From the NCBI GenBank assembly GCA_964016885.1, contig OZ024742.1, positions 349,804,001 to 349,868,000 of the forward strand: a stretch of DNA of 64,000 nt, written 5' to 3'. Source of the stretch: Eledone cirrhosa. Lineage: Eukaryota. The notes beneath the pieces are model-generated. The model did not search any database. It worked only from the letters and a program-made list of their open reading frames with translations, and had not been told where the DNA came from. Of this stretch, positions 17,559-54,625 are shown one piece after another; within the stretch, counting starts at the first letter, position 1; each line of letters starts with the position of its first letter. The position numbers and the translations under genes were made by a program.

Positions 17559-17611
<53 letters not shown>
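17559..17611. repeat. (AAT)n microsatellite, 3' junction of Tx1-like element A
   Basis: Directly visible. Confidence 0.95.
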
Positions 17612-17613
<2 letters not shown>

Positions 17614-17891
17614 TTTCATTTATTGGCCACAAGGGCCGACATATAGGAGACAATACAAAAGACTGGGACAGTGGGGTTTTACAGAACAATCGAGTAAACA
17701 ATATGAATAACAATAACAAAGTAACAATAACAAAGTAACAATAAAGAAACAAGAAAATTACAACAAGAAAAAATTCCCCAATAGGGGGGATGACTACCTA
17801 GGGTTCGCTCAGGTACCCCACCAGTCCTGAACGACCCGACGCTTCGAGAGCACCCTGGAAGGGCACCCCTCTCCTCTTCAAATTTACCTAC

Positions 17892-20800
17892 CTACAGCCG
17901 CATGACCAGAGTAGGCCCACTCACACGGGCCACTCTCGCCACATTCACCCACCTTTCAGCAAATGTACTGGGGAGAAGCACTTCTCTCTCCACCCTCATC
18001 TTCCTTTCCAAGTGAAACTTGAAAAAGTTGATGAGGGATTGGCCGAAGAGAAAAGTGTCTGTCTTCAGTCCTTTCAACCTCGTCCACCATACAACCTCTT
18101 TCGCTACTGCCACCAGACAGAGGAAAATTGCCTGCCCTTCCTGGTCAAAAGAAGGCGGCGGGTCGATCTTCACTATGGACTCGGCCGATAGCTGGATCCG
18201 TTCTACACGCGACAACAGCTGTTCAACATAATTCCAGAAGTCAGTAATGCACGGACACTGGATGAGTGTGTGCAGAACGGTTTCGTCGCTCTGCGCACAT
18301 CTCGGGCAGGTCCGTCTGACAGCACTTCCGTGCCTGTAGAGTTTATATCGAACCGGCAGTGCCCCCGGTAGCACTGCCAAGCGAGGGATTTTTGGAAATT
18401 ATCCATCGTCCCCAGCTCGAAAGTCCTCGGGTACAGACTGGTTGGTTCGACTTCGTTGACTCCCAGAGCCTCTCTGAGTGCGTCGTCGCACTTGCCCATC
18501 AATAATTCTCTATAGAACTCGAGAGTGGAAGTTCCACTGACCGCATTGCCCGCCTGGTAGAGGGCAGTGAGTGCCTGGCAACATTCCAGATGCCAGTCAC
18601 CCAGTCTCGGTCTCTTCTTGACCCAGGACTGCAACTCAGTCAAAGAAACGAGCTGCGGAAAGGCCCGTCTGACAAACGGCGACCACACCTGTTCACCGTT
18701 TAGGCAGAATATCTGGAGATGCCGCAGCCTCAGCGCGTGCCTGCGCATCATTAGCCACGGCATGCCCAGCCCTCCACGTAAAGGGTGCTGGCAGCAGATG
18801 AACCGCCTCACCAGCGGAACCTGACCCCTCCACAAGAATTTGAAGAGGAGCTGCTCCAAGATGGCGAGGCGCGAACGGGGGCAAGGGACGACAGTCAGAC
18901 GGTAGATGACGGACGCGATGTACGCGTTCGCCACCTCCGCCCGACCTTTCAGTGATAGCTTCATCCCAGCCCATTTCTGGGTGAGACTGACTACCCTGTC
19001 CGTCACCTCGTCCCAATTCTTATCCACCTGGAGGTCTGGCCCGAACCAAACCCCTAGCAACTTTACCGGTCTGTCCGTCCAGCGCCTAACGACGCTGTTG
19101 GACGGCATGGACTTTCCTCTCCAGGTGCCGAGTTGCAAGCCCACTGACTTTTCCGGGTTAAGTTTTGCTCCCGTCAACCTTTCATATTCCTCCAATAAGT
19201 TGCCGACCACCTCGATTTCTGAGGTGTCCGACACCATCACGGTGTTGTCGTCCGCATAAGCCAACACAGCCTTTCCGCGTGCCGGTTCGAGCGGGATGCT
19301 CTGCAACAGCTCCAGTTTCCGCAGTAAAGGCTCGAGAGTCAATACGTACAGAAGGGAGGAAAGAGGGCACCCTTGACGGATCGATCGGGTGACCTGAAAC
19401 GGTTCCGAGAGGTGGCCATTAATTTTGACCATCGAGCAGGTGCCGCTGTGCATTGCAGCGATCCAGCTTCTGAAGACGGGGCCGAAGCCAGCCGCCTTGA
19501 GGACAGCCTCCAGGTACCGATGGTCGACCCTATCGAATGCTTTCGATTGATCTAAATTGATCAGAGCCCCACCGAAGCCAGGTTTACACCCTACCCTCTC
19601 TATGATGTATCGCATTAGGTGGAGGTTGTCGTGTATGGACCTGGTTGGGATTGCGCAAGTTTGCGCCTCCTCAACCAAATCCCCGACGACAAGCGCCAAC
19701 CTCTTCGTTAACACCCTCGCCAAAATCTTAAACTCTGTGTTGAGCAGAGTTATGGCCCTGAAATTGTCTAATGTGTTCCTTTGTTCTCGTCTTTCCTTAT
19801 CAGCGTCACTACGCCCCGGCTCACAGAACTGGGAATACTCCCGTTTTGCTGCCAGTTGCAGTAGAAGGCTTCGAGGAGATTGGAGAACAAGTCTGGCATA
19901 TTTACGTAAAGCTCGTAGGGCAGACCATCCAAACCGGGTGACTTGCGCCTCATGCAGCCCCCAAGGGCATCCTGAATCTCGGCTGAAGTAATTGGCTTTT
20001 CGCAGCGCCCAACGTCAGCCGTCGAGAGTTGCGGCAAGCCATCGAGGTAAGGACTGAAGTCCGCTACCATCTCTGACCCGTCACTTCCCCCGAACAACCG
20101 AGCAAAATGTTGGCGAAAGGCCTCACACATCCTCTTGGAATCGCTCAGCTCGTGCCCGTCTCGGTCCCTCAAAGACCGAATCGTGGTTTTATTACCACGC
20201 TGCGCCTCTGCTACGTGGGCCCATCGAACAGCTTTGGTTCTCTCGTTTCTCAGAGCACACGCCTTAGCTCTGACAATGCAACCTTCGTGTTTTGCATTGA
20301 AGAAATGGTCTAATGCCATTCTCGCCGCTAGCACATCAGTTGCAATGCCACTACCAATAGCCTCGTCTAACTTATCTACCAACTCCCCTCTCCTTTCTAT
20401 TTTTCTCTAATGCTACTTCTTTGCTAAACTCTATCGACATTACTCTAATCTCTCTTTTGAGAGCCCCCCACCATCTATTGTTGACGATTCCCCCTGTCAA
20501 CTTTTACTTAACTAAATTGTTGACCTGGTCCCTGTAAGCCTTACGTGCCGGAAATGACATGTTTAGCTTCCAGTAACCAGGTCCTAACCTACGCGTCTTA
20601 TCTAGGTCGACCATACAGATCACAAACTTGTGATCTGAATAGGCGACCGTTTCAAAACGTGGACAGCTTGCACTATTTCTGTCTATTTTCCTAGTGAATA
20701 TCCTGTCTATATACGATCTAGATGACACTATGCGGTTAGCCCAGGGCCACCCTGGAGCATTAGAGAAATCTAGTCGGTACCTGTCAGACAGTTGGAACTG

Positions 20801-21289
20801 GCTGATCAGGTTCTTGAGGCTTTGGCACCCCCCACTCCTATCGGATACTCCCACACAGTCCCAGCGTGCGTCCAAGATGCCGTTCCAGTCTCCCGCTAAC
20901 AGTAAAGGGCGAGACGTACCCAGAAAGGCTTCCAGGCGTCTAAAGAAGTCCGGCCGTCCTGCCCCAGTAGGAGCATAGACGGCAACCAGTCTAAAGGCAC
21001 CACCTTCGTTATTGTTCACGTCCAGCACCACCAATTTCCCGTCCGGGTCCCGGAAGATCGACCTTACCTCGAGATCCAGGCCTTTCCTAAACAACACAGC
21101 CACCCCGCCTCCCATTCCCGGCCGGCTAACAGATGCAAAGATCTGATAGTCGTCGAAAATGGGGGCTAGTGCGCGCGTGTCGGAAATTACATCCATTTCT
21201 ATAGACCTAAGGTCGTTGAGCAGGTGACCCTGCTTCCAGGACGATCCCAGGCCTCGAAAATTTAAACATCCTACTCTTAATACGGCCAT
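17892..21289 (-). pseudogene. ORF2 of element A: APE endonuclease, reverse transcriptase, C-terminal CCHC; broken by stops and frameshifts
   Basis: Motifs LNFRGL, VYAP, GDWN, YIDR, SDH (APE); KSPGLDG, LDQSKAFDRV, RQGCPLS, YADD (RT); CPRC..ETVLHTLIQC. Split over 4 ORFs. Confidence 0.92.
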
Positions 21290-21322
21290 GTTGGCAGGTT
21301 AAAAAGAGAGAGAGAGGAAGGT

Positions 21323-23275
21323 TTACTTACCTTCCGGGCTCTTGTGAAGGTCGGGTTGTTCGACCTCCATAGTTGGTGGGGTTTCTTTTGGGAACCCCTT
21401 TAAAAGTCTTGAAGTGGGTTTTACGTTCGGGGTTCCCACGTCCCGAGGAAAGCTGTCTCGTATTTCTTTGAATATATCGAGCGACATTCGCACCAGAACC
21501 AAATCTTCCGGCACGCGAAATATGCTATATTTTAAAAATTTCCCCCTCTTTTTGTATATTTTCACTTCGTATTACGAGGGCCATCAGTTCCTTGTTGGCC
21601 CTCCTGACGAGCACGAACTTTTGTATGTTTTGTTGGTGTGATTTTATTTGTTTGCGTGGCTGTGGTGGTGATGGTTTTGGTGGTATTGTTTTGGTTGTAT
21701 CTGTGTTTGTTGTGAGTGCGGTGTCTGTGGTTTCAGATGTTTGTGTGTATATTTGTTCTTGCGTCTGTTAAAGTTGTTTGCGGTTGGGGGATTCTGGTGG
21801 TGTTGATGTTGGTGTCATTGGAGAGATGTTTGCGTGGGTGGTGTCTGCGTTTTTTATTGTGGGTGATTTTGTGCTTTGTTGAGTTTTTTTTTTCTTTTTG
21901 TTTCCTTTTTTGTATTTTGGGGGATTTTGGTTTTCCCTCATCTTCACTACTGGTAGATGAGGGTTTTATGTCTGTAAGTGTGTCTGTATGTATGTTTATG
22001 GTTTTATTGGTGTGTGTATTTTTTGGTAGGGGGGGAGGGAGGGGGAATTTGACAGCTTTCCTCGTTTCCCCCCTGGGTGGTCAATGTTGGTGGTGGTCTT
22101 TCTATTGGTGTTGTTGTTGGTGGTTTTGCCGGTACTGGTGTTGGTTGTGGTTCTCGCCCCGGCGTCGGCAGCAGTGGAGCCTTTCGACCCCTTGCCTCTT
22201 TCGGCAGTTGAGGGCAGAAGGTTCGCAAATGGGTTTTTTCCCCACAAACAAAACACTGCGGCCTATTGCCTTCGGTCATAATGTGAATGGCCGTCCCATT
22301 CTGAAGGCGGATGTAGTCCGGGATTGTCTTCACATTCTCGGGCCTGATCTGGAGAAGGATCTCCAGATCAACCCCGGACCACTCCTCTCTGGCCATTCTG
22401 GTCACTTCTATAGGGACGGTATCCGTCCCCTCCACAATCACACATCCCAGAAGCCACCACATGTCAAGTCCTGGTGGGATTCTGGGAATGCGGAGACTTT
22501 TTCCCATGTGGGAGGGGTACATTTTGACATTGCTGGTTTTGCAAGGAGTCATAGCGTGTTTCATAGCGAGGGCTTCTGACTTGAACAACACCGAAATAGT
22601 GCCGTACTGTCTGCCTCTCTCTACTTATTCGGTGTTTTCTCTGATGCACCTCAGCGCGACTTCGACATCTTCTTGTGGGATTAAAGCTGCCCTTTTGGTT
22701 TGTGCTGAGATGCATCTATAATGCACCGTTCTGCGCTCCACTGCCTCAATAGCTTCTACCGGGACAGTTAAGTTGGCCCAGGTTTGCTCTTGCTTGATGC
22801 GCCTCCATGCCTGGGCCAACTTTTCATCTTTGTTTGAGAGGTCCATGTTGAAGCATGGCCTCTTTTTTGCTGCTGCGAAAGTGTTCTTCTTGTTTTCGTT
22901 GGGGTTGTTGTTGTTGTTCTTGTTGGTGTTATTGTTAGCACTGTCGCTGTTATCATTGTTGTCTTTGTTGCCACCGTTGTTCTCGGTGCAGTTGGTATTG
23001 TTGCTGTTGGTGTTGTCGCTATTTGTTTTCATGTTAGTGGTGTTGATATTGTTGTTGTATTTGTTATTTTTTTTTTTGTTATCTGTATTTTCGTTGTCGC
23101 TGTTACTGTCATTTTTTTCAAAATTAGAGTTCTTATTGGTATCATTGGTGTCTTTGTTTACCTTGTTTGTGGTGGTGTTTGTGTTATCAATGTGTGTTAA
23201 TTTCGCTGTAGCGTTCCTCTCAACTTCGTTGTGGCACGACAGCAGACATATCGCTGGAGGGCGTGGCTCAGCCAT
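21323..23275 (-). pseudogene. ORF1 of element A (N/T-rich N-terminus, zinc knuckle)
   Basis: CFVCGEKTHLRTFC knuckle; homologous to ORF1 of B and E (RG.QYG..SVLFKSEALA); internal stop and frameshift. Confidence 0.8.
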
Positions 23276-23740
23276 GTATTAACATGTAAAAAAATTCAAA
23301 TAATGGGGCCAAAAGGCCAAAATATTATACTTTCCCCTTCACAGGGCAAAGTCTAAGGGCTTATATCCCTTTCACAATAAGAAATATTTAACAACAAATA
23401 ATTTTAACAGGCAAATAAAGCGACTTACTGGGAGCGAGCAAAATACGTCCGCTTAGACCAATAATAATAACAATAATAATAATAATAATGCTTTCTTTAT
23501 TAACCACAGGGGTTTACATAAAGTAGACATTAAGGACAGTACAGGACAATACAGGACGGTACAAATGGGCATTTCTGCGTGTAAAAAACAAAAACAGAGG
23601 ATGTAACAAGAAAATAACAATGAAAAATTACCCAATACGGGGGAGACTTCCGAGGGACATTCGTGGAGAAAGCCCATTAAAAAGTCACAGTGACCCTGAA
23701 CACCAGGGCAAGTGCCCTCTCCCAGTTTTCCACCTTTAAT

Positions 23741-26700
23741 TTACAGACACATACTCAGAGTAGGCCCATTGACTCGTGCCATACTTGCCTCTCTAACCCA
23801 TCTTTCAACAAAATGCTGGGAAGAGAGCACTTCCCTCTCTACTCTGATTTTCCTTTTCAAATGAAATTTGAAAAAGTTAATCAGGGCATCACCGAAGAGG
23901 TAAGTGCTCGTCTTCAGCCCTTTCAAACGTGTCCATCATACTATCCCTTTCGCCATGGCCACCAGACAGATAAAAATTGCCTGCCCTTCCCGGCTAAAGG
24001 AAGAGGGCGGGGAAATCCTCACGATGGACTCAGCTGATAGCTGGATCCGTCCTACACGTGACAGCAGGTGTTCGACATAAACCCACAAGTCAACAATGCT
24101 CGGACACTGGACAAGTGCATGCAGGACGCTTTCATCGCCCTGCGCGCATCTGGGACATTCCCGGCTGACGGCACCTCCATGCCTGTAGAGGTTATCCCGA
24201 ACTGGCAAAGCTCCTCGGTAGCACTGCCAGGCCAGGGATTTCTGGAAGTTGTCCATAGGCCTCGGGCCGAAAGTTCTTCCGAAGAGATTGGCTAGTTGAT
24301 TTTCGTCGACGCCTAGAGTTTCCCCAAGAACGTCGTCGCTCTTCCCCTCCACAAATACTCTATAGAACGCCAAGGTGGATTTCCACTGATCACATTGCCC
24401 GATTGGTCGAGGGCTGTGAGCGCCTGAAGACATTCCAGTCTCCAAGCGCTCCCTCTCGGTCTTCGCTTGACCCAGGACTGCAGCTCGGTCAATGAGACGA
24501 GCTGGGGAAAGACGCGCCTAGCAAACGGCCACCACACCTGATCACCGTCGAGGAAGAGGTGGAGATGTCGTAGCCTGAGCGCGTGTCTGCGCATCATCAG
24601 CCACAGCTTACCCAGCCCTCCACGTAGCGGGTGTTGACAGCAGATGGACCGCCTGACATCGGAGCGCGTCCCTTCCACAAAAAGCGAAAGAGCAAACGCT
24701 CCAGCGCAGTCAGACGGGGCTTAGGATAAGGTACGACGGTCAGGCGGTAGCAGATGACAGACGCGATGTACGCGTTAGCCACCACCGCTCGACCTTTCAG
24801 GGATAGCTTCCTCTCCGCCCATTTCTGGGTGAGAGAAGCCACCCTGCTCGTCACCTCGTCCCAGTTTTTGTCCGTCTGGAGGTTCGGACCGAACCAGACC
24901 CCTAGCAATTTAACCGGTCCATCCGTCCAGCGCCCGACGACGCTGTTGGACGGCATGGACCTGCCTCTCCAGGTGCCGAGGTGCAGGCCCACTGACTTTT
25001 CCTGGTTGATCATTGCTCATATTCTCTTAGTGTAGTGCCGATCGCCTCGATGTGCTTGGCGTTCGACACCACTACGGTGACATCGTCCGCATATGCTGAC
25101 ACGGATCTTCCGCATCCTAGTTCGCGCGTGACGCCCCTCAACGTCTCCAGTTTGTGCGGTAATGGCTCGAGAGTCAATACGTACAAGTGGGACGAGAGGG
25201 GACATCCTTGGCGGACCGAGCGCAAGATGTTGAACGGTTCCGAAAGGTGACCGTTCACTCTCACTACAGAGCAGATGTCGCAGTGCAAGGCAGCGATCCA
25301 GCCTCTGAAGACGGGCCCAAAGCAAGCTGCCCTCAGGACTGCCGCTAGGTAACGATGGTCGACCCTATCGAAAGCTTTCGACTGATCTAAATTGATCAAG
25401 GAGCCACCCGTGCCAGGTTCCCTAGCTACCCTCTCTACGATGTATCGCATGAGGTGGAGGTTGTCGTGGTTGGATCTGTCGGGAATGGCGCATGTCTGCG
25501 CCTCTCCCACCAGACCACCAACGACAAGCGCCAACCTCTTTGCTAGCACCCTGGCCAAAATCTTGAACTTTGTGTTTAGCAGAGTTATGGGCCTGAAGTT
25601 ATCTATCTTATCCCCCTTGTTCGGATCCTTTCTCAGCAGCGCCACCGCTCCTCGGCTCACAGAGCTGGGAATTCTCCCGTTCTGTTGCCAGTTGCAGTAG
25701 ACGTCCGCCAAAAAGCCTCCGAAACAGTCTGGCATCTGTACGTAAAGTTCATAGGGCAGACCATCCAAACCAGGCGATTTACCCCTTGTGCAGCCAGTAA
25801 TTGCCTCCCATACTACAGCGGCTGTTATCGGCTTTTCGCAACACTCCGCCTCAGTGGCCGAGAGCCACGGCAGTGCGTCGAGGTAGACACTAAAGTCCAT
25901 CGCTCCACCCGGCCCGCCACTTCCCCCGAACAGCTGAGCGAAGTGTCGCTGAAAAGCTTCACACATTTGCCCGGGATCGAGTAGCATGCGCCCGTCGTGG
26001 TCCACCAAAGACCGGATCGTGGCTTTGTTGCCACGACGCGCCTCCGCCACTCGGGCCCATTGAACGGCTTTCCTCTACTCGTATCTGAGAGCACGCACCC
26101 TAGCTCTGACAACGCAGCCTTCGTTATTTGCATTGAATAATTGGTCAAGGGCTAATTTCGCCGCAAGTACGTCGGTCGCGAAGCCTTTGCTAAGCGCCTC
26201 GTCTAATTTTCTAACTAGTTCTCCCTCTGCTCTATTTTCCTCTATTTCTAAAGCCTTACTAAACCTAATGGACTCTATTCTAATCGCTCTTTTCAGAGCA
26301 AACCACCACTTGTTGTTGCCAATTGCCCCGTCAACGCCCGCTTAACTAGTTCGCTAATCCGGTCTCTGTTGGCCTTGCGCGCTGGTAAGGACGCGTTTAG
26401 CTTCCAGTAGCCGAGTCCTCGTCTATGAAGCCTATCTAAGTCAAGCACACAGATCACGAATTTGTGGTCCGTGTGGCTGACTATCTTGAATTGTGGACAG
26501 CCTATGCTAGACCTATCTATTTCCCTACAAAATACTCTATCTAGATATGATCTAGATGACCCTATGCGGTTTGTCCAAGTCCACATTGGCACATTCGGGA
26601 AATCCAATCGGTACCTGTCAGACAGTTCAAAACGCCTGAGCAGGTTGGTGAGGCTCTTGCAGCCTCCTCTCCTATCCGCTAATCCCATACAGTCCCAGCG

Positions 26701-27110
26701 TGCATCTAAGACCCCGTTCCAGTCGCCCACTAACACTAAAGAGCGGGACGTTCCAAGAAAGGTCTCCAGACGCCGGAAGAATCAGGCCGCTCTGCTCCTG
26801 TCGGGGCATGGACGGTCACTGGCCTGAAAGCTTGCCCGTCTCCGTTGGTCACGCCCAGCACCACCAACGTACCTTCTGGGTCCAGCGAGATCCAAACCTC
26901 TCAGAAAAAGCACAGCAACTCCTCCCCCCGATCCAGGACAGCTGGGAGATGCGTACACATCGTAGCCGCCGAAGATCGGTGCGAAGGCCCGGTCTCGCTG
27001 ATGGCCACTACATCTATGTTTAGTGACCTGAGGTCGTTGAGCAGGTGGCCCCGCTTCCATGACGACCCCAAGCCACGCGCATTTATGTTGCCTATTCTGA
27101 GTGAGGTCAT
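23741..27110 (-). pseudogene. ORF2 of element B (APE-RT-CCHC), multiple frameshifts
   Basis: NINARGL..ISET, GDWN, YLDR, TDH, FRPITLLN, LDQSKAFDRV, RQGCPLS, YADD, CPRC..HALVQC. Confidence 0.92.
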
Positions 27111-27144
27111 GTTGAAATGAATTGGAAAAGATGGGAAAGACCAC

Positions 27145-29055
27145 TTACCTTACTTCTCGTAGAGGAAGGATGGTTTCTCCATCCTTTTCACTGCTTGTGG
27201 CCTCCTCCAGAAGGATGTCCTTATAAATCCTCCTGGAGAGTGCTTGTCGGAAGTCTCCGTTGTCTTTGGGGAATTTTTGTTTTAGTGTCGTGTACGTTTT
27301 CTTTGTGATGCGAGTGATTTGTATGTGTGGAGGTGGTGTTAACTTTTGGGTTGTTGTGTAGTCTTTTTCTGTGATGCTGGTGTTGTGTTGGATGTAGTGT
27401 AATAATTGGTTGTTGTTCAAATTTAATGCTGTGTATTGTGTATCGTTTTGGTTGTTTTGTTTTGTTTGCGTTTGTTGTGGGTTGGTTTCTGTTTCGCTTT
27501 TTGGTGACTTTTGTGGTGTTGATGATGGTGGTGTTGGGGTTAATGATGGTGATGGTGTTGGTGTTTGTGGTGATGGGGTTGGGGATGCTGGTGCGGATGG
27601 TGGCATAGCTGTCCTAACTTTTTTGGTTGATACTTTATATGTTTCCATCTGTATTTTGTTTTTGGAGGGGGAAGGAAGAGAATTTTTTCTTTTTTGGTTT
27701 CTTTTTTTCTTTTTTCCTGATACCGTTTCCCACTCTTCGTCGTCACAATCTGTCTCCAGTTGCGATAGGTCGGGGAGTGGAAAATCCTCCACAGGCGTTG
27801 GTTTTGGTTGTGGCGTGGTGCTAGTTCTGGAGCGTTGGGTGGTGGTGGTGTTAGTTTTGCTACTGTTGCTGGGGTTGTTGCTGTTACAGTTGCTTCTGTT
27901 GTTGCTACTACAGTTGTTGCTGCCATTTCTGCTGCTGGTGGTGTTGATGGTTGAGTCACTGGGGTGGGTAAGAGAGGTGGCCTGAACCTTTTAGCCTGAG
28001 GGCAGAAAGCCCTTAGGTGGGTTCCTTCACCACAAACGACACACCTAGGCCTTCTGCCCTCGACGATACGGTGAGGTGGCTGCCGTCAGTAAGGTCTATT
28101 ACCTCTGAGATCTCCTCAATACTTTTGTGGTCCGCTTGGATCAGGAGCTCCATCCCAGATCCGGAAAAGTTTTCCTGCTTTTCTTTCGCAATTTAGATTA
28201 TCTTGGTGTCGGCTTCGATGCCGGCGACGACGGCGGCCATTAGCCAGGGAATTTCGATGGCCGGTGGAACGTGGGTCACCCTGATCTTCACGAGTCTCTG
28301 GCCACAATAGCTTGGGACGAGTGTAAAGTCGTCACTTCTAAATGGGGCCATGGAGTGTTCTCTGGCCTCCTGTGGTGTTCCAAAGAACACGTCCACGGTT
28401 CCATATTTCTGCCCACGTCTGATGTGGTTTTTTTTTGCCCACACATGTCCCAAAGCTTTTTGGATTTGGGACTCGTATGCTCGTTCCACTCGGCGCGATT
28501 TTATCTTAATCGTCCGATAAGACACGGTGCATAGGCGCCGATGCTCCATTTTATTAGGGGGAGGGGGGATGAGGCTGACCCTGTACCCATCTTTCTTTAC
28601 CATTCTCTTGGATTCATCTAATTCCTCCTGAGTTACCTGGATTGCTTCACACTTTTTTGCTACTCTGGCAAAAGACAGGGTGGTTTTCTTATTCTCATTG
28701 TTGTTGTTGGTGTTGTTGTTATCGTTATTTTTGTTGTTATTTTTAGTTTCAGTTGTGGTGGTGGTGGCGTCAGTGGTGTTCGGTGTGGAAGAGTCCATTC
28801 TGGGTGAATCCATTTCGATGTCACGAGATATTTAATTTTTTTCTTTGTTTCTGTTGTCGCTGTCGTGGTGGTGGGGGTGGCGGCTTTAACACCTGCAGTC
28901 ATTGGTAATGGCGGGAAATAAATGTCTGCATGAGACAAATTTAAATTATTGCTACTGCTTATATTTTTAGTGTTGGCAAACGTAGTAATATTTACAAAGG
29001 TGGTGTCGGTGTGAGGTGTTAATTTGTTAGGAAGGTGTGGCTGTGAGTGGTCCAT
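27145..29055 (-). pseudogene. ORF1 of element B
   Basis: RRGQKYGTVDVFF block; CVVCGEGTHLRAFC knuckle read by hand near 28000-28045; P/T-rich linker; frameshifted. Confidence 0.78.
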
Positions 29056-29271
29056 GATTTTTCAAAGAAATTTTTTTGCTTGATAATTATAAAAGTTTAA
29101 ATTTTGGGCTCAAGGCCCCAATATTTTTGAGTGTCCTTTTTTTCGAAAGCAAATTTTGTGACCTTATAAATAGTTAACAACAACAATTTTCCATAAATGG
29201 CAATTTTAAACAAACGAAAACAACAAACCTTTGCGCAGCTCTCGATGATACGATTTCCTAACTAGGTCGCC

Positions 29272-29328
<57 letters not shown>

Positions 29329-29486
29329 GGCCCCTTCACGCTTTTTGGAACGCTTCAAAAGGCATGCTTGCTTGGAACAGCAAGAACCCTCCGATACGTC
29401 CTGAATATCTGAGGCTGCAGGTAGTGGCTTGATATTCATTCCAACGGACTTTCCAGTTAACCAACATCAATGACTGAGATTCAAGG
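29329..29486 (+). mobile_element. 5'-truncated 3' tip of R4/Dong family 1
   Basis: Near-identical to 35114-35270 (GPFTLFGTLQKAC..GTARTLRYVLNI plus 3' UTR); (AAT)n on both sides. Confidence 0.9.
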
Positions 29487-29517
29487 AATAACAACAATAA
29501 TAATAATAATAATAATA

Positions 29518-29719
29518 AAATACAAAAGATAGTACTAATGGGAACTGCCCATATACTAAGGAAGATCCTGTCAATATAAGTACATCACAAGTCTAAACAC
29601 TAAGGATGCATGTGTGAATATGTATGTTCTTTCTTGAACATGGCGGACCTTGTTGTCTCTTGAGGTCACTGGTTGTGTCTTGGTGATAACTCGTATAAAC
29701 ATAAAGCAAGATAAATGCA
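29518..29719 (+). mobile_element. 5'-truncated 3' tip of R4/Dong family 2
   Basis: Encodes IQKIVLMGTAHILRKILSI*, matches 36705-36755, followed by a 3' UTR ending in (AAT)n. Confidence 0.85.
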
Positions 29720-29764
<45 letters not shown>

Positions 29765-29766
<2 letters not shown>

Positions 29767-30600
29767 TTTCTTTATTAACCACAAGGGTTTACATAAAGTA
29801 GACATTAAGGACAGTGCAGGACAATGCAGTACGGTACAAATGGGCATTTCTCCGTGTAAAAAACAAAAACAGAGGATGTAACAAAAAAAAAACAATGAAA
29901 AACAGTGACCCTGAACACCAAGGCAAGTGCCCTCTCCCAGTTTTCCACCTTTAATTTACAGATATATACTCAGAGTAGGCCCATTCACTCGGGCCATTCT
30001 TGCTTCTCTCACCCATCTTTCAACAAAATGCTGGGAAGAGAGCACTTCCCTCTCTACTCTGATTTTCCTTTTCAAATAAAATTTGAAAAAGTCAATCAGG
30101 GCATCACCGAAGAGGTAAGTGCTCGTCTTCAGCCCTTTCAAACGTGTCCACCATACTATCTCTTTCGCCATGGCCACCAGACAGATAAAAACTGCCTGCC
30201 CTTCCCGGCTAAAGGAGGAGGGCGGGGCAATCCTCACGATGGACTCAGATGATAGCCGGATCCGTCCTATACGCGACAGCAGGTGTTCGACATAAACCCA
30301 CAAGTCAGCAATTTTCGGACACTGGACGAGTGCGTGCAGGACGGTTTCGTCGCCCTGCGCGCATCTCGGACATGCCCGGCTGACGGCACCTCCATGCCTG
30401 TAGAGTTTATCCCGAACTGGCAAGGCTCCTCGGTAGCACTGCCAGGCCAGAGATTTCTGGAAGTTGTCCATAGGCCCCGGCCCGAAAGTTCTTCCGAAGA
30501 TCTTGGCTAGTTGATTTTCGTCGACGCCTAGAGTTTCCCCAAGTACGTCGTCGCTCTTCCCCTCCACTAATCCTCTATAGAACGCCGAGGTGGAGTTTCC
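29765..30600 (-). mobile_element. 5'-truncated Tx1-like copy C (family B)
   Basis: ORF 29956-30567 is nearly identical to the C-terminus of B ORF2; same 3' end; (AAT)n on both sides (29720-29764, 30602-30672). Confidence 0.92.
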
Positions 30601-30601
30601 A

Positions 30602-30673
<72 letters not shown>

Positions 30674-31658
30674 GAAGAAGGGAAGAAGACGCACGCGGTG
30701 GTAGAAGGTCATGAAATCGCTCCCGTAAGTTTTTGATTTTTAACATATTTAAATCAATTGTGAAATAACAATTCTTAGTACAAATGATGCATAAACCACC
30801 GAATCAAGTCTCATAAAATTTCGGATCCATATTATATTGTTATATCGCTCAAATATTCAATTTTGTATTATATATTTTGCATTCAAAAAAGAAAATGGTT
30901 ATAAATGGAAGAAAACACCCTCTGTCTACACTATATAGAACAGCCAAATAACAGCAATTTCACCAACACCAGAAACTTGATACACCACCCACCCCATCAC
31001 ACTAAATATAACAGCCAGATAACGGCAATTTCACCACCACCACCACCAATCCCAGCACCATAATAATAATTACTATTATTATTGTCTCAAGTTTTAACAA
31101 AATGTTTAATTCCAATTTTACGGGAATATGTCAACACAATATATATTAAACATACGCGACACAAACTCATAGATACTACATATCACAAAACTCAGTAACG
31201 ACAACGCCACCGCCGCCACCACTCCATCCATCATTGCTACCACTATCCCATCACCGCCGCCACCACGCCTTCATTGCTACCACCACTATTCCCCTGTTAA
31301 TTTAAGAAAGGGGAAGGTGGCGATATCACTAGACAAGGGAGAGGCTAGCAAAAGATATAAATAGATTGACTTAGTGACCTGGCCACCGGCCAAACGTCAA
31401 CAACTATGGCACTGCTGGCTCCCCCCTTCCTCACCGACAATATAAAAAGCCCCAGCACCCCCACCGACATAGCCAACAACAATAACAGGCAACTTCAGCA
31501 AAAAGTATATTATATTATTGTAATGCACTGGGTGATTGTTGGCCTTGTGCCTGGAGTGGAGACAATTATTAATAATTTCATTCTTAAGCCACGCAATGCT
31601 CACATTAAGAAACCACTCATGATAATAACAATTTATAAAAAAAACAACAAAAAGAAAA

Positions 31659-34600
31659 CCCCGTGACCAAGAAATACCGGGATGGCGGCTGGCGGGGAAT
31701 AGCCGTGTCTCTAGGGGAGAACGACCCCTCTAGTCTTGGTTGACACTCGTTCTAGAAGTGGTAACACAAAATGATTACCCCTTGGCGGATAAGGATAAAA
31801 CGCGACAAAATAAAGTAAATGTCTAATGATAAAATCTCATACCGGATCGGCCGTCACCCGGGTAAAAAAGGGCCGCGTCCCTCAGAGAGGAACCAGACTG
31901 GGGTCGAAAAATCAGCTAATGGTTCAAACCTTCCCATCACTTCGGAGCTGGAGACCTCCCATAACCGGAATACTCCTACTGTTGGCCCTCCATGCTCACC
32001 ACCAAGAAATCCAAAGAAAAAGAGAGAAAAATGGTCAAGGGAAGATAATAAAGAAGTCCTTGAGGCTTTCTACACTGCCATGTACTACCCATCAAATACA
32101 TCGAATACAGAACAGACATATATCAACTGGAAAAAGAAACATCCCGAAAACAGAGGCTATATTGACAGTAACAAACTAGCCAATATACGAAGAAATATTG
32201 TAAGAAAAAAGTTACTAACTGATATAGAAATTGATCAGATCAAGCTATTAGCACAAAGTCAGCGAAGGGAAAATGAAACATGTGTCAGTGAAAACGAGGT
32301 AAATTGTAACACTTCGAATCCCAGGGTTGGGGCGGAATCACTGGCAACAGAACAAATTAAAGAAAGGATCGAAAAAGTGGAGGGAGTGCATGCTCAAGAT
32401 GAAACTCCAAATGAAAATAATGAGATCGTAAATAATAAAGAAATGAATGAGAATGAACTTGCCAACTTGAAGGATGAAATTATGATCAAATGGATGAAAA
32501 TGAAAGAATCTGACATGGGGCAACGAGACACCCTCCCTAAGATCCAGAACTCCAAACAGAACCAAAAGATAATACACAAGACTAACATAATTCTCAAAAA
32601 CATTATCATCACAAACAAACGAAACATTACTGATTTAAATCATCTCTATTATGCATCGGCTAAAGTCACCACTCACTTATGTGGAGTGAAGATGAAAAAA
32701 CAAAGGAATTCCCACAAGAAATCTACTTGGCAAGAGAACATCAATCGCCAAATAAACCTTCTCCGATCTGACATAGAAATTTTAACAAACTATAAAGTAG
32801 GTGAACATGTTAAACAAACTAAACTTAGAAAATTGAAAAGAAAGTACAGTATAAAATCAACAAGTGACATAGACATGCTGATAGAAATAATCAAGCAAAA
32901 AGTGTCGGCCAAAGCTACTCGTATAAGGCGCTTTGAAAAACGATCTAGATTCTATAAGGAGAATAATATGTTCAAAAACAACCAAAGAAACTTCTACAGA
33001 AAAATTGGTAAGTCAACAATAACTGCTAAATCAATACCACCCAAGGAGGAAGTGCAAGAATTCTGGGAAAAGATCTGGGCCGAAGAAAAAGTTCATAACA
33101 TACATGCCCCATGACAGACAAATGAAAGATACAGCTCACCTTGAGGAACAAATATGGGAAAATATAACAGTTGAACAGTTGCGCTTGGCTCTAAGAAAAA
33201 CCAGCAAATGGAAATCCCCAGGAAAAGACAAAATACAAAATTTTTGGATAAATGCCTTCACAGAGACTCATGAGCTGTTAGCCCAACTTTACAATGAAAT
33301 AGTTAAGGAGCCAGAAAAGATACCATCATGGCTAGTTAACGGCATTACATTCCTGCTTCCGAAGAATGATGAGACAAACAGTCCCAAAAATTACAGACCG
33401 ATAACTTGCTTGACCACAATGTATAAAATTTTAACATCAGTCCTAACTTAATACACATATGACCACCTGATAACAAATGACCTATTTCCCATTGAGCAGA
33501 AAGGGTGTAAACGAGGCTCATATGGCTGTAAGGATCAGCTTTTGGTTAACAAAATGATACTGAAAGATTGTCATAATAGACACAAAAATCTATCGATTGC
33601 TTGGATAGATTATAAAAAAGCATTCGATAGTTTGCCACACAGTTGGATTGAAAAATGTTTAGAGATTTTCAAAATATCCCCCGTTGTCAGGAGGTTTTTG
33701 TCATTCAGTATGAAGACATGGAAAACGACACTCCTTTTGAATAGTGAAACAAAATCACTGGAAGCTGGAGAAGTTAATATTAATTGTGGAATTTTTCAGG
33801 GTGACTCTTTATCACCGCTTTTATTCTGCATCGCACTTATACCATTAAGTAAAATGCTCAATGAAACAAAACATGGATATAAAGTCTATGACAAAACCAT
33901 TAATCACTTGTTCTACATGGATGACCTGAAACTATTTGCAAAAAATGATGAGCAATTGCAAGGGCTATTATGCACTGTGGAGCAGTTCAGTGATGACATT
34001 AAAATGGAGTTTGGACTAGATAAATGTGCCAAAGCAACGTTCACCAGAGGAAAGCTGCTGAAGAGTTCAGACATTAATCTTGATCGGGGGAACGTGATAA
34101 GAGAACTTGATCAAGAAAAAACTTACAAATATCTAGGTGTTTGTGAACAAAAAGGAATGTTGCTGAACAAAAAGAAATGGATAGGAAGACTAGGAAGCTA
34201 TTGACTATCTACAATATGTTCCACAAGAGGAGTGATGTCGATAGACTCTACTTAAGGAGATCTGAAGGTGGAAAAGGTCTTATCAGCATAGAGGACTGTG
34301 TTCAGATGGAGAAAAACAACCTACACAAATACGTGACTGATAGTAAGGAGCCAATGCTCAGAACTGTACTGAAGGAGGGGACAATAGGCCAGGGGATGTC
34401 CAAGGAGGAAATAACATCAAGGAGAAAGAGCAGCCTTCAGGAAAAAATCCCTTCATAGTACCTTCTTTGAGAAAACTGAATTTAGAGATCCACAGACATG
34501 GAACTGGTTGAAAAGAGGAGACCTTAAAAAGGCCACAGAAGGAATGTTAATGGCTGCGCAGGAGCAGGCCCCCAAAACGAAGTGGTTGAAACACCACATT

Positions 34601-35273
34601 TACAAGGAGGAGGCTAGCCCACAGTGCAGGATCTGTGGAGAGAGAGAGGAGACTGTGGCTCACATTGTATCCGAGTGTAAACACCTAGCCCAGACTCACT
34701 ATAAGGGCTGGAGACATGATGTGATGGGCAGGGTGATCCACTGGCACCTATGCAAAGTAAACAATTTACAACCTTCTGAGAAGTGGTATGAGCATAAGCC
34801 AGAGGCGGTGATAGAAAACGATCAGGTGAAGGTGCTGTGGGATTTTAGGATACAGACGGACAAGAAACTGGAACACAATAGACCTGACCTGGTGGTTTTG
34901 GACAAAGAAATAACATCGTGCCTGATTGTGGATGTGGCCTGCCCATTCGACACGAGAGTGCAAGAGAAGGAGAGGGAGAAAATTAACCGATACCAGGACC
35001 TAAAGTGGGAGGTAAAAAGGATTTGGAACTGCCATGAAGTCAAAGTGATCCCGATTGTCATAGGCGCACTAGGGACTATCTCAAAAAGTTTCCAGGGATG
35101 GTTAAAGAAAATTGGCCCCTTCACGCTTTTTGGAACGCTTCAAAAGGCATGCTTTCTGGGAACAGCAAGAACCCTCCGATACGTCCTGAATATCTGAGGC
35201 TGCAGGTAGTGGCTTGATATTCATTTCAACAAACTTTTCAGTTAACAAACATCAATGACTGAGACTCAAAGAG
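31659..35273 (+). mobile_element. R4/Dong-clade non-LTR retrotransposon (single ORF, RT plus restriction-like endonuclease), near full length, disrupted
   Basis: RT and RLE motifs; 3' end runs into TAATAATAAT; degenerate A/AAC-rich tract upstream. The 5' boundary is approximate. Confidence 0.9.
31819..35197 (+). pseudogene. R4/Dong RT-RLE polyprotein, broken into 5 ORFs
   Basis: [43 protein letters not shown]; CRIC..H...C, RHD, RPDLVV..D, EK..RYQDL (PD-D/E nuclease). Confidence 0.92.
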
Positions 35274-35285
35274 TAATAATAATAA

Positions 35286-35357
35286 TTGTTTCTACTTTAG
35301 GCACAAGGCCAGCAATTACCAGTGCATTACTGGTACTTTATTTTATCGACCCCGTAA
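35286..35357 (-). mobile_element. SINE 3' fragment (family of 46851-47040)
   Basis: tgtttctactttaggcacaaggccagcaatt...tcgacccc, shared with the other copies. Confidence 0.75.
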
Positions 35358-35407
35358 AATAATAATAATAAAGAGTAATAATAATAAAGAGTAATGATAA
35401 TAATAAT

Positions 35408-36299
35408 GATTTCTTTATTAACCACAAGGGTTTACACAAAGTAGACATTAAGGACAGTACAGGACAATACAGGACGGTACAAATGGGCATTTCTGCGTGT
35501 AAAAAAAACAAAGAATAGAGGATGTATAAAAAAAAACAATGGAAAATTCCCCAATAGGGGGGGGGGGAATTTCCGAGGGCCATCGTGGAGAAAGCCTATT
35601 AGAAAAAGCCACGGTCACCCTGACCATCAGGGCAAGTGCCCTCTCCCAGTTTCCCACCTTCAATTTACAGGCATATACTCACCCATCTTTCAACAAAATG
35701 CTGGGAGAGAGCACTTCCCTCTCTACCCTGATTTTCCTTTTCAAATGAAATTTGAAAAAGTAAATCAGGGCATCACTGAAGAGGTAAGTGCTCGTCTTCA
35801 CCCCTTTCAGACGCGTCCACCATACCATCTCTTTCACCATGGCCACAAGACAGATAAAAACTGCCTGCCCTTCTCTGCTAAAGGAAGAGGGCGGGGCGAT
35901 CCTCACGATGGACTCAGCTGATAGCTGGATCCGTTCTACACGCGACAGCAGGTGTTCGATATAAACCCACAAGTCAGCAATGCTCGGACACTGGACGAGT
36001 GCATGCAGGACGGTTTCGTCGCCCTGAGCGCATCTCGGACATGCCCGGCTGACGACACTTACGTGCCTGTAGAGTTTATCCCGAACTGGCAAAGCTCCTC
36101 GGTAGCACTGCCAGGCCAGGGATTTCTGGAAATTGTCCATAGGCCCCGGCCCGAAAGTTCTTCCGAAGAGATTGGTTAGTTGATTTTCGTCGACATTAAG
36201 GACAGTACAGCATTTCTGCGTGTAAAAAAAACAAAAAACAGAGGATGTAATAATAGAACAATGAAAAAATTCGCCAATAGGGGGGAGACTTCCGAGGCC
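35408..36299 (-). mobile_element. 5'-truncated Tx1-like copy D (35408-36194) fused to a second 3'-UTR fragment (36192-36299), family B
   Basis: MDNFQKSLAWQCYRGALPVRDKLYRH..CPRC; same 3' terminus; followed by (AAT)n 36300-36328. Confidence 0.88.
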
Positions 36300-36328
<29 letters not shown>

Positions 36329-36330
<2 letters not shown>

Positions 36331-36755
36331 GCATTTTGACCTGCCCCATCAAAAGAATTGGTGGGAGCATCAACCACCACCCATACTTGAAAAAGATCAC
36401 ATCTCAATCTTGTGGAACTTTAGCATCCAAACAGACCAAAAAATAGATGCAAATAGACCTGATATAATACTGAAGGACTTTAAAAAGAGGGTATGCCTGC
36501 TAATTGATATGTCTGTTCCAATAGACAAGAATGTATCTATAAAAACATTTGAAAAATTGAGTATAAGGACCTGGAGATAGAAATTGGAAACATGTGGAAA
36601 TTGAGAACTAAAACAATACCAGTGGTTGTAGGCGTTCTAGGAATGATACCTAAGGGGTCTAATGATTATTTATCGCAAATCCCAGGAAACCCGCGTATAG
36701 GAGAAATACAAAATATAGTACTAATGGGAACTGCCCATATACTAAGGAAGATTCT
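36329..36755 (+). mobile_element. R4/Dong family 2 RLE-domain fragment
   Basis: Hand translation: WWEHQPPPILEKDHISILWNFSIQTDQKIDANRPDIILKD..LIDMSVP..(frameshift)YKDLEIEI..IPVVVGVLG..MGTAHILRK; starts directly after (AAT)n. Confidence 0.88.
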
Positions 36756-36781
36756 TTGTTGACTTTAATAGAATGTATACA

Positions 36782-36905
36782 CGGCGAATTGACAGAATCA
36801 TTAGAACATTGGGTAAAGTGCTTTGCGGTATTAATTCTGGCTTTCTATGTTCTGAGTTCAAATCCCACGGAGGTCAACTTTGTTTTCCATCTTTTCGAGG
36901 TCGAT
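36782..36905 (+). mobile_element. tRNA-derived SINE head fragment
   Basis: ctgagttcaaatccc B-box plus gaggtcaactttg..ttcgaggtcgat, shared with the other copies. Confidence 0.7.
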
Positions 36906-37526
36906 GAAAATATCAGTCCAGTTCTAAGGCCGATTCGTCTTCTATGTATCTTTCACATGCTCCTCTTCCCTGTCTTTTCCCTTCTCAGACAGGGCTGTGT
37001 TCAGACGGGTCCATACCTACAATATCAGAGAGTATAAACAGATTTTAAGAGGTCAAAAAATATTTAGGAATGGTGAAGCCAACTGAATAGAGAATAGCAG
37101 TTAGTTGGATATGAAACAAAATATATTCCTATAAAAGCAAGGAAGCAATAGATATAATCAATCGTATGCGATGGAAAATACAACAGCAGGAAAAAGAAAA
37201 GGACGACCACCGAAACTAGAAATGTTTGACTGTTGGTGGCACAATTGACCCTTATAACTTAAAGACAAAGAAAAATCAGACCTCGTGGATATGATAAAGA
37301 ATATATAATTAAAGATGTATAGAAAGGGCCTGTCAAACAGCATTGAGATATGAGATATGAGAAATGTAAAGAAGCAACCTTCATATGAGAAGACAACAAC
37401 AACAAAACTATGTGTACAAGAAACAAAGACCTCTTCCTGCAGAACATCATAATAAAACATTAAAAAAACATTAATATACACAACGTAATTAAGAGAGAAA
37501 CATTGGAATTAGCAATGGGTTTATAA

Positions 37527-46850: not shown

Positions 46851-47275
46851 CTGGTGGATTGGCAGTATCAATAGAGAGTCGGATACCATGCTTTGACGCA
46901 TAGAGCTACGGCTCTTGCCATTCTGAGTTCAAATCCCGCCGAGGTTAACTTTGCCTTTCATCTTTTCGGGGTCGATATCATAAAGTACCAGTAATGCACT
47001 GGGTAATTCCTGGCCTTGTGCCAAATGTAGAAACAATTATTTAAATAAATAGGGTGGTGGATTGGCAGTCATCGGTAGAGGGTCGGACAACATGCTTTAT
47101 GGCATAGAGTTACGGTCCTTTACGCTCTGAGTTCAAATCCAGCCGAGGTTAGCTTTGTCTTTCATCTTTACGGAATCGATAAAATAAAGTACCAGTAGTG
47201 CACTGGGGTCTAATTAATCGACATTTCCCTCCCCTTCAAATTGTTGGCCTTGTGTCTAAAGTAAAAACCATTATT
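46851..47275 (+). mobile_element. Two tandem tRNA-derived SINE copies (46851-47040, 47053-47275)
   Basis: ggtggattggcagt A-box-like start, gagttcaaatcc B-box, conserved body ending gtagaaacaattatt. Confidence 0.85.
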
Positions 47276-47504: not shown

Positions 47505-47690
47505 TAATTGTTTCTACTTTTGGCACAAGGCCAGCAATTATCCCAGCGCATTACTGGTACTTATTTTATCGACCCCGAAAGGATGAAAAGCAAAGCTAAC
47601 CTCGGTGGGATTTGAACTCAGAATGGCAAGGGCCGTGACTCTATGCGTCAAAGCATGGCGTCCGACCCTCTACCGATACTGCCAATCCAT
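47505..47690 (-). mobile_element. SINE copy
   Basis: Reverse complement of 46851-47040. Confidence 0.85.
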
Positions 47691-54583: not shown

Positions 54584-54625
54584 GTGCACCTTTTCGTCCT
54601 TTTTCTCCAACTTTTCTTCACCAAC

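What the first reader, a model, noticed from the sequence alone, without database searches (positions are those of the whole stretch)
17559..36755. 19-kb pile-up of two unrelated LINE clades in (AAT)n, in strictly opposite orientations
Seen: about nine insertions, nearly all separated only by (AAT)n. All five Tx1-like pieces (APE nuclease) are on the minus strand, so they run into ATT; all four R4/Dong pieces (RLE nuclease) are on the plus strand, running into AAT. 5'-truncated copies also abut the repeat at their 5' junctions, so it is a target rather than just a tail. Established: Dong elements target (TAA)n, and some Tx1-clade families (Kibi, Koshi) target other microsatellites. Inference: two nuclease types converge on one repeat by nicking opposite strands. 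I do not know of a described (ATT)n-specific Tx1 family.
Basis: partly seen in the sequence, partly recalled or inferred. Interest (0 to 1): 0.75.

Follow-up and report, generated by a model that had tools for sequence, protein, structure and literature searches.

The report
Opposite-strand LINEs sharing an AAT microsatellite
Ten retrotransposon pieces lie inside one (AAT)n microsatellite, with the Tx1-like elements always reading ATT and the Dong-like elements always reading AAT; the same rule holds at every junction sampled across this genome and likely reflects two different nucleases nicking opposite strands of one repeat.

Summary
Window 17561-36752 is one (AAT)n tract split by ten insertions. 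Five are Tx1-like pieces (APE+RT) and one is a SINE fragment, all on the minus strand. Four are pieces of two restriction-like-endonuclease (RLE) LINE families, all on the plus strand.

The rule holds at every junction sampled elsewhere in the 3.0-Gb genome:
- Full-length 5' ends of the two Tx1-like families follow (ATT)n in 28 of 29 and 29 of 29 copies.
- Their 3' ends run into (ATT)n in 27 of 28 copies.
- The Dong-like family has (AAT)n at 28 of 29 3' ends and 27 of 29 5' ends.
- Of 228 element ends that abut a repeat run, none breaks the family-specific orientation.
- 5'-truncated Tx1 copies abut (ATT)n in 9 of 12 clear cases, so the repeat is a target and not only a tail.
- 15 of 17 position-sampled long (AAT)n runs are flanked by these elements.

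A sister Tx1-like family in the same window sits in (TCTA)n.

That the two nucleases nick opposite strands is inferred from target-primed reverse transcription and was not tested. Seven literature searches found no (ATT)n-specific Tx1 family, but Repbase and Dfam could not be checked. This is a solid, moderately novel transposon finding.

The parts
17561..17611 (+). (AAT)17, the left end of the invaded microsatellite. It abuts the 3' end of Tx1-like A.
17612..23459 (-). Tx1-like element A, full length (5848 bp) and defective. ORF1 at 22004-23278 has an in-frame stop. The APE lies at 20504-21298, the RT at 18203-20014 and the zf-RVT C-terminus at 17892-18398, in shifted frames. The 5' end begins GGTCTAAGCGG and the 3' end is ...AATAAATGAAATC.
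23460..23489 (+). (AAT)10 with one variant unit, between the 5' end of A and the 3' end of B.
23490..29271 (-). Tx1-like element B, full length (5782 bp), frameshifted, 73% nt identical to A. ORF1 lies at about 27145-28831, APE pieces at 26293-27144, the RT at 25010-26074 and the C-terminus at 23936-24517. The 5' end begins GGCGACCTAG and the 3' end is ...AATAAAGAAAGC.
29272..29325 (+). (AAT)18, between the 5' end of B and the Dong-like fragment.
29329..29495 (+). 5'-truncated 3' fragment of Dong-like family 1 (93-94% to 35114-35286), followed by (AAT)7 at 29496-29516.
29517..29719 (+). 3'-terminal 203 nt of RLE family 2, ending ...GATAAATGCA, followed by (AAT)15 at 29720-29764.
29765..30601 (-). 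Tx1-like C, a 5'-truncated 3' fragment (88% to B). Its truncation point abuts (AAT)23 at 30602-30670.
30671..35274 (+). Dong-like family 1, full length (about 4.6 kb), single ORF region 31819-35197 broken by frameshifts and a stop. The RT lies at 33452-34204 and the zinc finger plus RLE at 34415-35197. The 5' junction is AAG-rich (..AAGGGAAGAAGACGCACG). The 3' end, ..GAGACTCAAAGAG, runs into (AAT)4 at 35275-35286.
35287..35357 (-). 5'-truncated SINE fragment (99% to SINE positions 114-184). Its 3' end, ..GCCTAAAGTAGAAACA, runs into ATT on its sense strand.
35358..35407 (+). Degenerate AAT tract (AATAATAATAAAGAG units) between the SINE fragment and Tx1-like D.
35408..36194 (-). Tx1-like D, a 5'-truncated 3' fragment (87% to B).
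36192..36301 (-). Tx1-like E, a 110-nt internal 3'-UTR piece joined directly to D's truncation point. Its own 5' side abuts (AAT)8 at 36302-36325.
36326..36752 (+). RLE family 2, a 5'-truncated piece encoding the RLE domain (about 38% aa identity to family 1). It breaks off about 150 nt before its 3' end, and no repeat lies at this right edge.

Best explanation
One (AAT)n/(ATT)n microsatellite has been hit repeatedly by two kinds of repeat-specific LINEs, which are predicted to nick opposite strands of it. The Tx1-like elements carry an apurinic-type endonuclease (APE), and they and a SINE that likely rides on them always lie with (ATT)n on both sides of their sense strand. The Dong-like elements carry a restriction-like endonuclease (RLE) and always lie with (AAT)n on both sides.

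Inferred mechanism, by target-primed reverse transcription:
- The Tx1-like APE would nick the AAT strand. The ...AATAAT-3'OH end would pair with the (AUU)n tail of the Tx1 RNA and prime cDNA synthesis.
- The Dong-like RLE would nick the complementary strand and prime on a (UAA)n tail.
- Each insertion leaves repeat on both sides and adds a tail, so the landing pad renews itself and nests and head-to-tail arrays build up.

Shown here: anatomy, domains, junctions and orientation, both in the window and genome-wide. Inferred: which strand each nuclease cuts, that the nuclease sets the specificity, and that the SINE uses the Tx1 machinery.
For: Window map and domains.

Genome-wide junctions, with window copies excluded:
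- Tx1 family B 3' ends are followed by at least 3 ATT units in 27 of 28 copies (L030 has 2).
- Family B full-length 5' ends are preceded by (ATT)n in 28 of 29. The exception, L038, has ATTATTA.
- Family A 5' ends are preceded by (ATT)n in 29 of 29.
- In both families the junction phase is always ATT|G.
- Dong-like 3' ends are followed by (AAT)n in 28 of 29.
- Dong-like 5' ends are preceded by (AAT)n in 27 of 29: 26 within 60 nt, plus L119 behind an (AAG)n run.

Orientation, in 114 loci:
- RLE ends: 107 of 107 have a sense strand reading AAT.
- Tx1 ends: 88 of 88 read ATT.
- SINE ends: 33 of 33 read ATT.
- Bystander elements only: 34 of 34, 29 of 29 and 20 of 20.

5'-truncated Tx1 copies abut (ATT)n in 9 of 12 clear cases, as do three pieces in the window.

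Of the first 17 runs of (AAT)15 or longer along contig 1, 15 abut at least one of these families in the expected orientation, and 12 do so on both sides.

A SINE copy at 48513-48694 has a 14-bp target-site duplication that begins ATTATT. This fits a nick just 3' of AATAAT on the priming strand.

All Tx1-like families share a 3' end, TGTGG(C/T)(C/T)AATAAAGAAA, followed by their own repeat.
Against: - No nicking or retrotransposition assay exists. Strand assignment rests on the canonical model.
- Specificity could come partly from pairing between the RNA tail and the target rather than from the nuclease.
- SINE copies with the same 3' end lie outside microsatellites with only 1-2 ATT units. The real requirement may therefore be a short ATTATT motif that microsatellites merely multiply.
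- 3 of 12 truncated Tx1 copies (L018, L021, L057) show no ATT at the homology boundary.
- Each junction set is the 30 best-scoring copies out of 343-2478 first-look candidates, not a random sample.
- The 17 microsatellites come from one 5.3-Mb stretch.
- All copies in the window, and 6 of 6 further Dong-like copies fetched, have broken frames.
- Clade placement was not tested by phylogeny.
Confidence: 0.8

Rival explanations
1. The repeat is only a 3' tail made by the elements, as with the (TAA)n tail of the Drosophila I factor. Insertion would be essentially random, and pile-ups would arise because tails expand.
For: All 3' ends carry the repeat, as a tail would. Some SINE copies sit in ordinary DNA with 1-2 units.
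Against: A tail cannot lie upstream of an element. Yet 57 of 58 full-length Tx1 5' ends, 27 of 29 Dong-like 5' ends and 9 of 12 truncated Tx1 5' ends directly follow the repeat. About nine of the family B cases are bounded by DNA with no recognised upstream element.
Confidence: 0.03
2. The elements have only a loose AT-rich nick preference, like L1 at TTTT/AA. They end up in (AAT)n because such tracts are abundant and tolerated, and selection removes insertions elsewhere.
For: (AAT)n is very abundant: 83,729 overlapping matches to (AAT)15. SINE copies occur at minimal ATTATT sites.
Against: The orientation rule holds at 228 of 228 ends, and the 5' junction phase is invariantly ATT|G. A loose AT preference would not give this, because the repeat offers AT-rich steps on both strands. 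A sister family with about 80% identical RT core sits in (TCTA)n instead.
Confidence: 0.07
3. Specificity and orientation are set mainly by base pairing between the RNA 3' tail, (AUU)n or (UAA)n, and the nicked DNA end. The two nucleases themselves would be weakly specific.
For: Each family's tail matches its target. Related Tx1-like families keep the same 3'-UTR end but carry different tails, ATT versus TCTA.
Against: In target-specific APE-type LINEs that have been studied, the endonuclease is held to be the main determinant. This is stated in the Introduction passage of PMC4494074 and a passage of PMC3812793. The invariant 5' junction phase also needs a defined second-strand cut. The data here cannot separate the two contributions.
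Confidence: 0.2

Closest known systems
Kibi and Koshi (Tx1 clade, teleost fishes) and the crocodilian (TTCC)n/(TTTC)n Tx1 families
   Same: They are APE-type LINEs of the L1/Tx1 group inserted specifically into a microsatellite. Related families differ in which repeat they use (passages of PMC4494074; a passage of PMC3812793).
   Different: The microsatellite targets named in those passages are all TC-rich: (TC)n, (TTC)n, (TTCC)n and (TTTC)n. Here the targets are (ATT)n and, in a sister family, (TCTA)n, in a cephalopod-like genome. Relationship to Kibi and Koshi was not tested.
Dong (R4 clade; Bombyx mori, Anopheles gambiae, Biomphalaria glabrata)
   Same: It is an RLE-type, single-ORF LINE inserted in (TAA)n with a (TAA)n tail (a passage of PMC3812793; passages of PMC3774820). 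The plus-strand elements here have the same target, tail and domain order.
   Different: Clade membership was not tested by phylogeny. The 5' junction here carries an AAG-rich stretch that is often expanded to (AAG)n. Rfam reported no HDV-like ribozyme in the window element, whereas B. mori Dong has one at its 5' end.
R1 (APE) and R2 (RLE) in 28S rDNA of arthropods
   Same: Two unrelated LINE types with different nucleases share one multicopy target. This is recalled knowledge and comes from no call.
   Different: R1 and R2 use two distinct sites in a gene. Here both use the same simple repeat, on opposite strands.
Tx1-Mar LINEs and SINEU SINEs of crocodilians
   Same: A target-specific Tx1-group LINE and a SINE share the same target preference, which suggests trans-mobilisation (PMC4494074, section 15).
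   Different: Here the shared target is a microsatellite and the SINE head is not snRNA-derived. No Rfam family matched the SINE.

Membership tests
Tx1 clade (L1 group) non-LTR retrotransposons | ORF2 has an N-terminal apurinic-type endonuclease followed by an RT | tested here: met
   Pfam finds Exo_endo_phos (E 1.2e-11) and RVT_1 (E 2.3e-26) in element A, and both in B.
Tx1 clade (L1 group) non-LTR retrotransposons | The RT belongs to the L1 group rather than the R2 group | tested here: met
   The best solved relatives are human L1 ORF2p (E about 1e-28), against R2 proteins at 2.5e-14 or weaker.
Tx1 clade (L1 group) non-LTR retrotransposons | The RT falls inside the Tx1 clade together with Tx1, Keno, Kibi and Koshi in a phylogeny | not testable with these tools
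   No reference sequences were at hand. The only lead is that the top named ESM Atlas cluster is 'Transposon TX1 uncharacterized 149 kDa protein family' (score 0.96, 186 of 256 features).
Tx1 clade (L1 group) non-LTR retrotransposons | Target-specific insertion, common in the clade but not universal | tested here: met
   (ATT)n lies on both sides in 27 of 28, 28 of 29 and 29 of 29 junctions sampled.
R4/Dong clade non-LTR retrotransposons | A single ORF with a central RT and a C-terminal zinc finger plus PD-(D/E)xK restriction-like endonuclease, and no APE | tested here: met
   RVT_1 lies at 33452-34204 and zf-RVT at 34415-35197. The C-terminus aligns to the R2 RLE (RPDL..VDV..EK). No APE hit was found in any piece.
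R4/Dong clade non-LTR retrotransposons | Dong: insertion in (TAA)n with a (TAA)n tail | tested here: met
   28 of 29 3' ends and 27 of 29 5' ends.
R4/Dong clade non-LTR retrotransposons | The RT groups with R4, Dong and Rex6 rather than R2, HERO or NeSL in a phylogeny | not testable with these tools
   Only group level could be shown: the RT is closest to R2 proteins among solved structures (E 1e-14, against 8e-5 for L1). The ESM Atlas names were uninformative. HERO is not excluded.
R4/Dong clade non-LTR retrotransposons | A self-cleaving HDV-like ribozyme at the 5' end, shown for B. mori Dong (PMC3774820) | tested here: inconclusive
   An Rfam scan of 17000-37500 at E<=1 gave no ribozyme hit. 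Such ribozymes are easily missed by covariance models. No fold or cleavage test was done.

The most novel reading that the evidence does not exclude
The long (AAT)n microsatellites of this cephalopod-like genome (83,729 overlapping matches to (AAT)15) are not passive simple repeats. They are self-renewing landing pads built and kept up by two unrelated LINE lineages that have divided the two strands of the repeat between an APE and an RLE nuclease. The Tx1-like lineage has also switched microsatellite targets, between ATT and TCTA, within closely related families. That makes it a natural system for reading how an APE-type endonuclease is retargeted.
Probability: 0.4. Interest if true: 0.6.

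Novelty: new variant of a known kind. Interest (0 to 1): 0.5.

Why it matters
Microsatellite-specific LINEs are known, but the passages I read name only TC-rich repeats for the Tx1 group and (TAA)n for Dong.

Here an APE-type and an RLE-type LINE use the very same repeat in fixed, opposite orientations. That gives a natural side-by-side comparison of how two nuclease folds read one simple sequence.

The close pairing of ATT- and TCTA-specific families (RT core about 80% identical, APE 61%) offers a small set of natural variants for mapping the determinants of APE target choice. This is relevant to attempts to use site-specific LINEs for targeted gene insertion.

It also shows that most long (AAT)n tracts sampled here are transposon junctions. 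This matters for repeat annotation, for microsatellite markers and for assembly in cephalopod-like genomes.

Tried and rejected
- A 152-nt query from the 3' end of the (TCTA)n family found nothing in the own genome, not even itself. A longer query worked.
- The Rfam scan of the cluster gave only three chance-level hits and no ribozyme. The scan of the SINE gave nothing.
- I fetched six further Dong-like copies hoping for an intact ORF to use in a named-homologue search. None was intact; the longest frame was 485 aa. I built no consensus and dropped that search.
- The ESM Atlas gave only generic names for the Dong-like RT.
- Supplementary files of PMC4494074, which may list further Tx1 targets, could not be read. 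Its Figure 3, which carries the target labels, is not held.
- The search of earlier findings held nothing for this genome.
- The automatic list of 5'-truncated Tx1 copies had 53 rows. I set aside three groups before the 9-of-12 count:
  - 17 rows from the (TCTA)n-family loci.
  - 14 rows below 85% identity.
  - 10 rows whose upstream 60 nt is itself Tx1 coding sequence, meaning internal deletions or rearrangements.
  This sorting was done by eye.
- In one search the 3'-end tally flagged L029 and L030 as failures only because the script picked the wrong half of a split alignment. One search shows (ATT)11 for L029 and 2 units for L030.
- The built-in control (the pattern read backwards) is the same repeat in another phase and says nothing.
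- I considered and rejected assembly artefact as an explanation, because the same architecture recurs at dozens of independent loci.


Full report
**What is there**

Between 17561 and 36325 every (AAT)n run of four or more units reads AAT on the + strand. Self-BLAST, a BLAST against a small element library cut from the window, and direct reading of the junctions give ten insertions.

On the minus strand:
- Two full-length LINEs, A (17612-23459) and B (23490-29271), 73% identical in nucleotides.
- Two 3' fragments of the B type, C (29765-30601) and D (35408-36194).
- A 110-nt 3'-UTR piece, E (36192-36301).
- A 71-nt SINE fragment (35287-35357).

On the plus strand:
- A full-length 4.6-kb LINE (30671-35274) and a 3' fragment of it (29329-29495).
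- Two pieces of a second family (29517-29719 and 36326-36752).

All boundaries are AAT tracts except two. D and E join directly. At the right edge, the last piece stops about 150 nt short of its 3' end.

**What the elements are**

A and B encode an ORF1 with a CCHC knuckle, then an apurinic-type endonuclease, an RT and a zf-RVT domain. Their RT is closest to human L1 ORF2p among solved structures, at E about 1e-28, against 2.5e-14 or weaker for R2 proteins. The top named ESM Atlas cluster is 'Transposon TX1 uncharacterized 149 kDa protein family', which is a lead only.

The plus-strand element has an RT closest to R2 proteins. It has a C-terminal zinc finger and a PD..D..K restriction-like nuclease that aligns to the R2 RLE. 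The second plus-strand family encodes a homologous RLE, about 38% identical.

All copies in the window are defective. None of six further Dong-like copies was intact either.

The nearest named proteins come from Argonauta hians (63% identity) and Acanthosepion pharaonis (50%). The genome is therefore most likely a cephalopod's. A recent Octopus vulgaris repeat annotation lists Dong-R4 and L1-Tx1 among the recently active LINEs. The passages I read say nothing about their targets (PMC13282606; PMC8967140).

**Target or tail**

I sampled the 3.0-Gb own genome with the ends of each family, taking the 30 best-scoring copies per query. Window copies are excluded from the counts.

| Junction set | Result |
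|---|---|
| Family B 3' ends followed by at least 3 ATT units | 27 of 28 |
| Family B full-length 5' ends preceded by (ATT)n | 28 of 29 |
| Family A full-length 5' ends preceded by (ATT)n | 29 of 29 |
| Dong-like 3' ends followed by (AAT)n | 28 of 29 |
| Dong-like 5' ends preceded by (AAT)n | 27 of 29 |

- In both Tx1-like families the 5' junction phase is always ATT|G.
- The Dong-like 5' junction often carries an AAG-rich or (AAG)n stretch.
- About nine of the family B 5' tracts are bounded upstream by DNA that my library does not recognise. The rest follow the 3' end of another element in the same orientation, or a Dong-like end in the opposite orientation.
- Among 5'-truncated Tx1 copies, 9 of 12 clear cases abut (ATT)n (sorted by eye; the dropped rows are listed under Tried and rejected). 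Three pieces in the window do the same.

A tail cannot lie upstream of an element, least of all upstream of a truncated one. The repeat is therefore a target.

**Orientation**

In 114 loci away from the window, every element end that abuts a repeat run obeys the rule.

| Element type | All adjacent ends | Bystander elements only |
|---|---|---|
| RLE (sense strand reads AAT) | 107 of 107 | 34 of 34 |
| Tx1-like (sense strand reads ATT) | 88 of 88 | 29 of 29 |
| SINE (sense strand reads ATT) | 33 of 33 | 20 of 20 |

**How typical the window is**

The pattern (AAT)15 has 83,729 overlapping matches in the genome. I examined the first 17 distinct runs along contig 1.
- 15 abut at least one of these families in the expected orientation.
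- 12 do so on both sides.
- 2 have no recognised neighbour.

The window is therefore a large example of the normal state of long (AAT)n tracts in this genome. The sample covers one 5.3-Mb stretch only.

**Ages**

Pairwise identity among sampled copies is about 98% for the Dong-like family, 92-95% for B and 89% for A. The Dong-like family is therefore the youngest.

**Mechanism**

In target-primed reverse transcription the nicked DNA strand pairs with the 3' end of the RNA.
- An RNA ending in (AUU)n needs a primer ending ...AATAAT-3', so the Tx1-like APE should nick the AAT strand.
- An RNA ending in (UAA)n needs the complementary strand, so the RLE should nick the ATT strand.

This is inference and was not tested. 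One SINE copy outside any microsatellite (48513-48694) has a 14-bp target-site duplication beginning ATTATT. This fits a nick just 3' of AATAAT and suggests that two units may suffice.

The SINE shares the 3' core GGCCTTGTG...GAAAC and the ATT tail with the Tx1-like families, so it is likely mobilised by them.

Because each insertion leaves repeat on both flanks, targets multiply. This explains the nests and head-to-tail arrays.

**Target switching**

Tx1-like copies on the plus strand at 39391-40160, 54600-58302 and 58350-59216 belong to a third family, flanked by (ATCT)n/(TCTA)n.
- Of 18 other genomic copies, about 11 have two or more TCTA units after the same conserved 3' end, and many continue into degenerate TCTR tracts.
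- Truncated copies also abut such tracts.
- Family A is closer to this family (RT core 79-80%, APE 61%) than to family B (71%, 56.5%).
- In a small RT tree, A and the TCTA family pair with 92/94 support inside a 100/100 clade that also holds B and an Argonauta protein.

**Comparison with what is known**

The passages I read name these Tx1-group targets: the Tx1D transposon, U2 snRNA genes, (TC)n, (TTC)n, (TTCC)n, (TTTC)n, a Mariner family, LTR elements and Harbinger transposons. The legend of Figure 3 also lists satellites, U5 and 5S as target labels (PMC4494074, passages and section 15). Dong is given as (TAA)n-specific (PMC3812793, a passage). B. mori Dong has a 5' self-cleaving ribozyme (PMC3774820, passages).

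Seven full-text searches turned up no (ATT)n- or (TCTA)n-specific Tx1 family and no description of APE and RLE LINEs sharing one microsatellite in opposite orientation. Repbase, Dfam, the figure of PMC4494074 and its supplements could not be checked, so prior description in a database cannot be excluded.

**Verdict**

The finding is a new target specificity within a known kind of element, plus a clear case of two nuclease types sharing one repeat. It is of moderate interest to transposon specialists. The key mechanistic step, strand-specific nicking, remains to be tested.

Noticed in passing
window 1-14773: A 14.8-kb minisatellite of a 15-bp unit (ACAGAGAGACATTGA, about 985 copies, 90% matches) runs off the left edge of the window.
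   Followed up: partly
window 39391-40160, 54600-58302, 58350-59216 (+): A third Tx1-like family on the plus strand is flanked by (ATCT)n/(TCTA)n on both sides, including at 5'-truncated copies. It has the same conserved 3' end as the ATT families, and its RT core is 79-80% identical to family A.
   Followed up: partly
window 59217-59400 (-), 48513-48694 (-), 46853-47207 (+), 47510-47689 (-): A roughly 184-nt SINE ends in GCCTAAAGTAGAAACA plus ATT. Copies outside microsatellites carry only 1-2 ATT units. One copy has a 14-bp target-site duplication starting ATTATT. One sits inside the 3' UTR of the (TCTA)n-family copy. No Rfam family matched it.
   Followed up: partly
L094, L095, L103, L106, L116, L119 (5' junctions of Dong-like copies): The AAG-rich 5' junction of the Dong-like family (AATAAGGGAAG|AAGACG) is expanded to long (AAG)n runs in several copies. 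This produces compound (AAT)n(AAG)n microsatellites.
   Followed up: no
L176 (G000:C1:5256300-5259500), positions 24-1177: A tandem array of about 22 units of roughly 45 bp, each matching positions 5-44 of the SINE, ends in a nearly full SINE copy. It looks like a satellite derived from the SINE head.
   Followed up: no
window 36192-36194: Tx1-like piece E, an internal 3'-UTR segment that lacks the last 30 nt or so, is joined directly to the 5' truncation point of piece D with no repeat between them. This could be a template switch during reverse transcription or a later deletion.
   Followed up: no
window 36752-36912: The family 2 RLE piece breaks off at 36752. It is followed by unrelated sequence that includes a diverged SINE-like segment at 36851-36912 (+). 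The cluster therefore has no repeat at its right edge, which suggests a deletion or a further insertion.
   Followed up: partly
L177-L182 and window 30671-35274: The Dong-like copies are 96-100% identical to one another at their ends. Even so, the window copy and all six other copies examined have broken reading frames, the longest being 485 aa. Possible causes are rapid decay, a source copy elsewhere, or indel errors in the assembly.
   Followed up: partly
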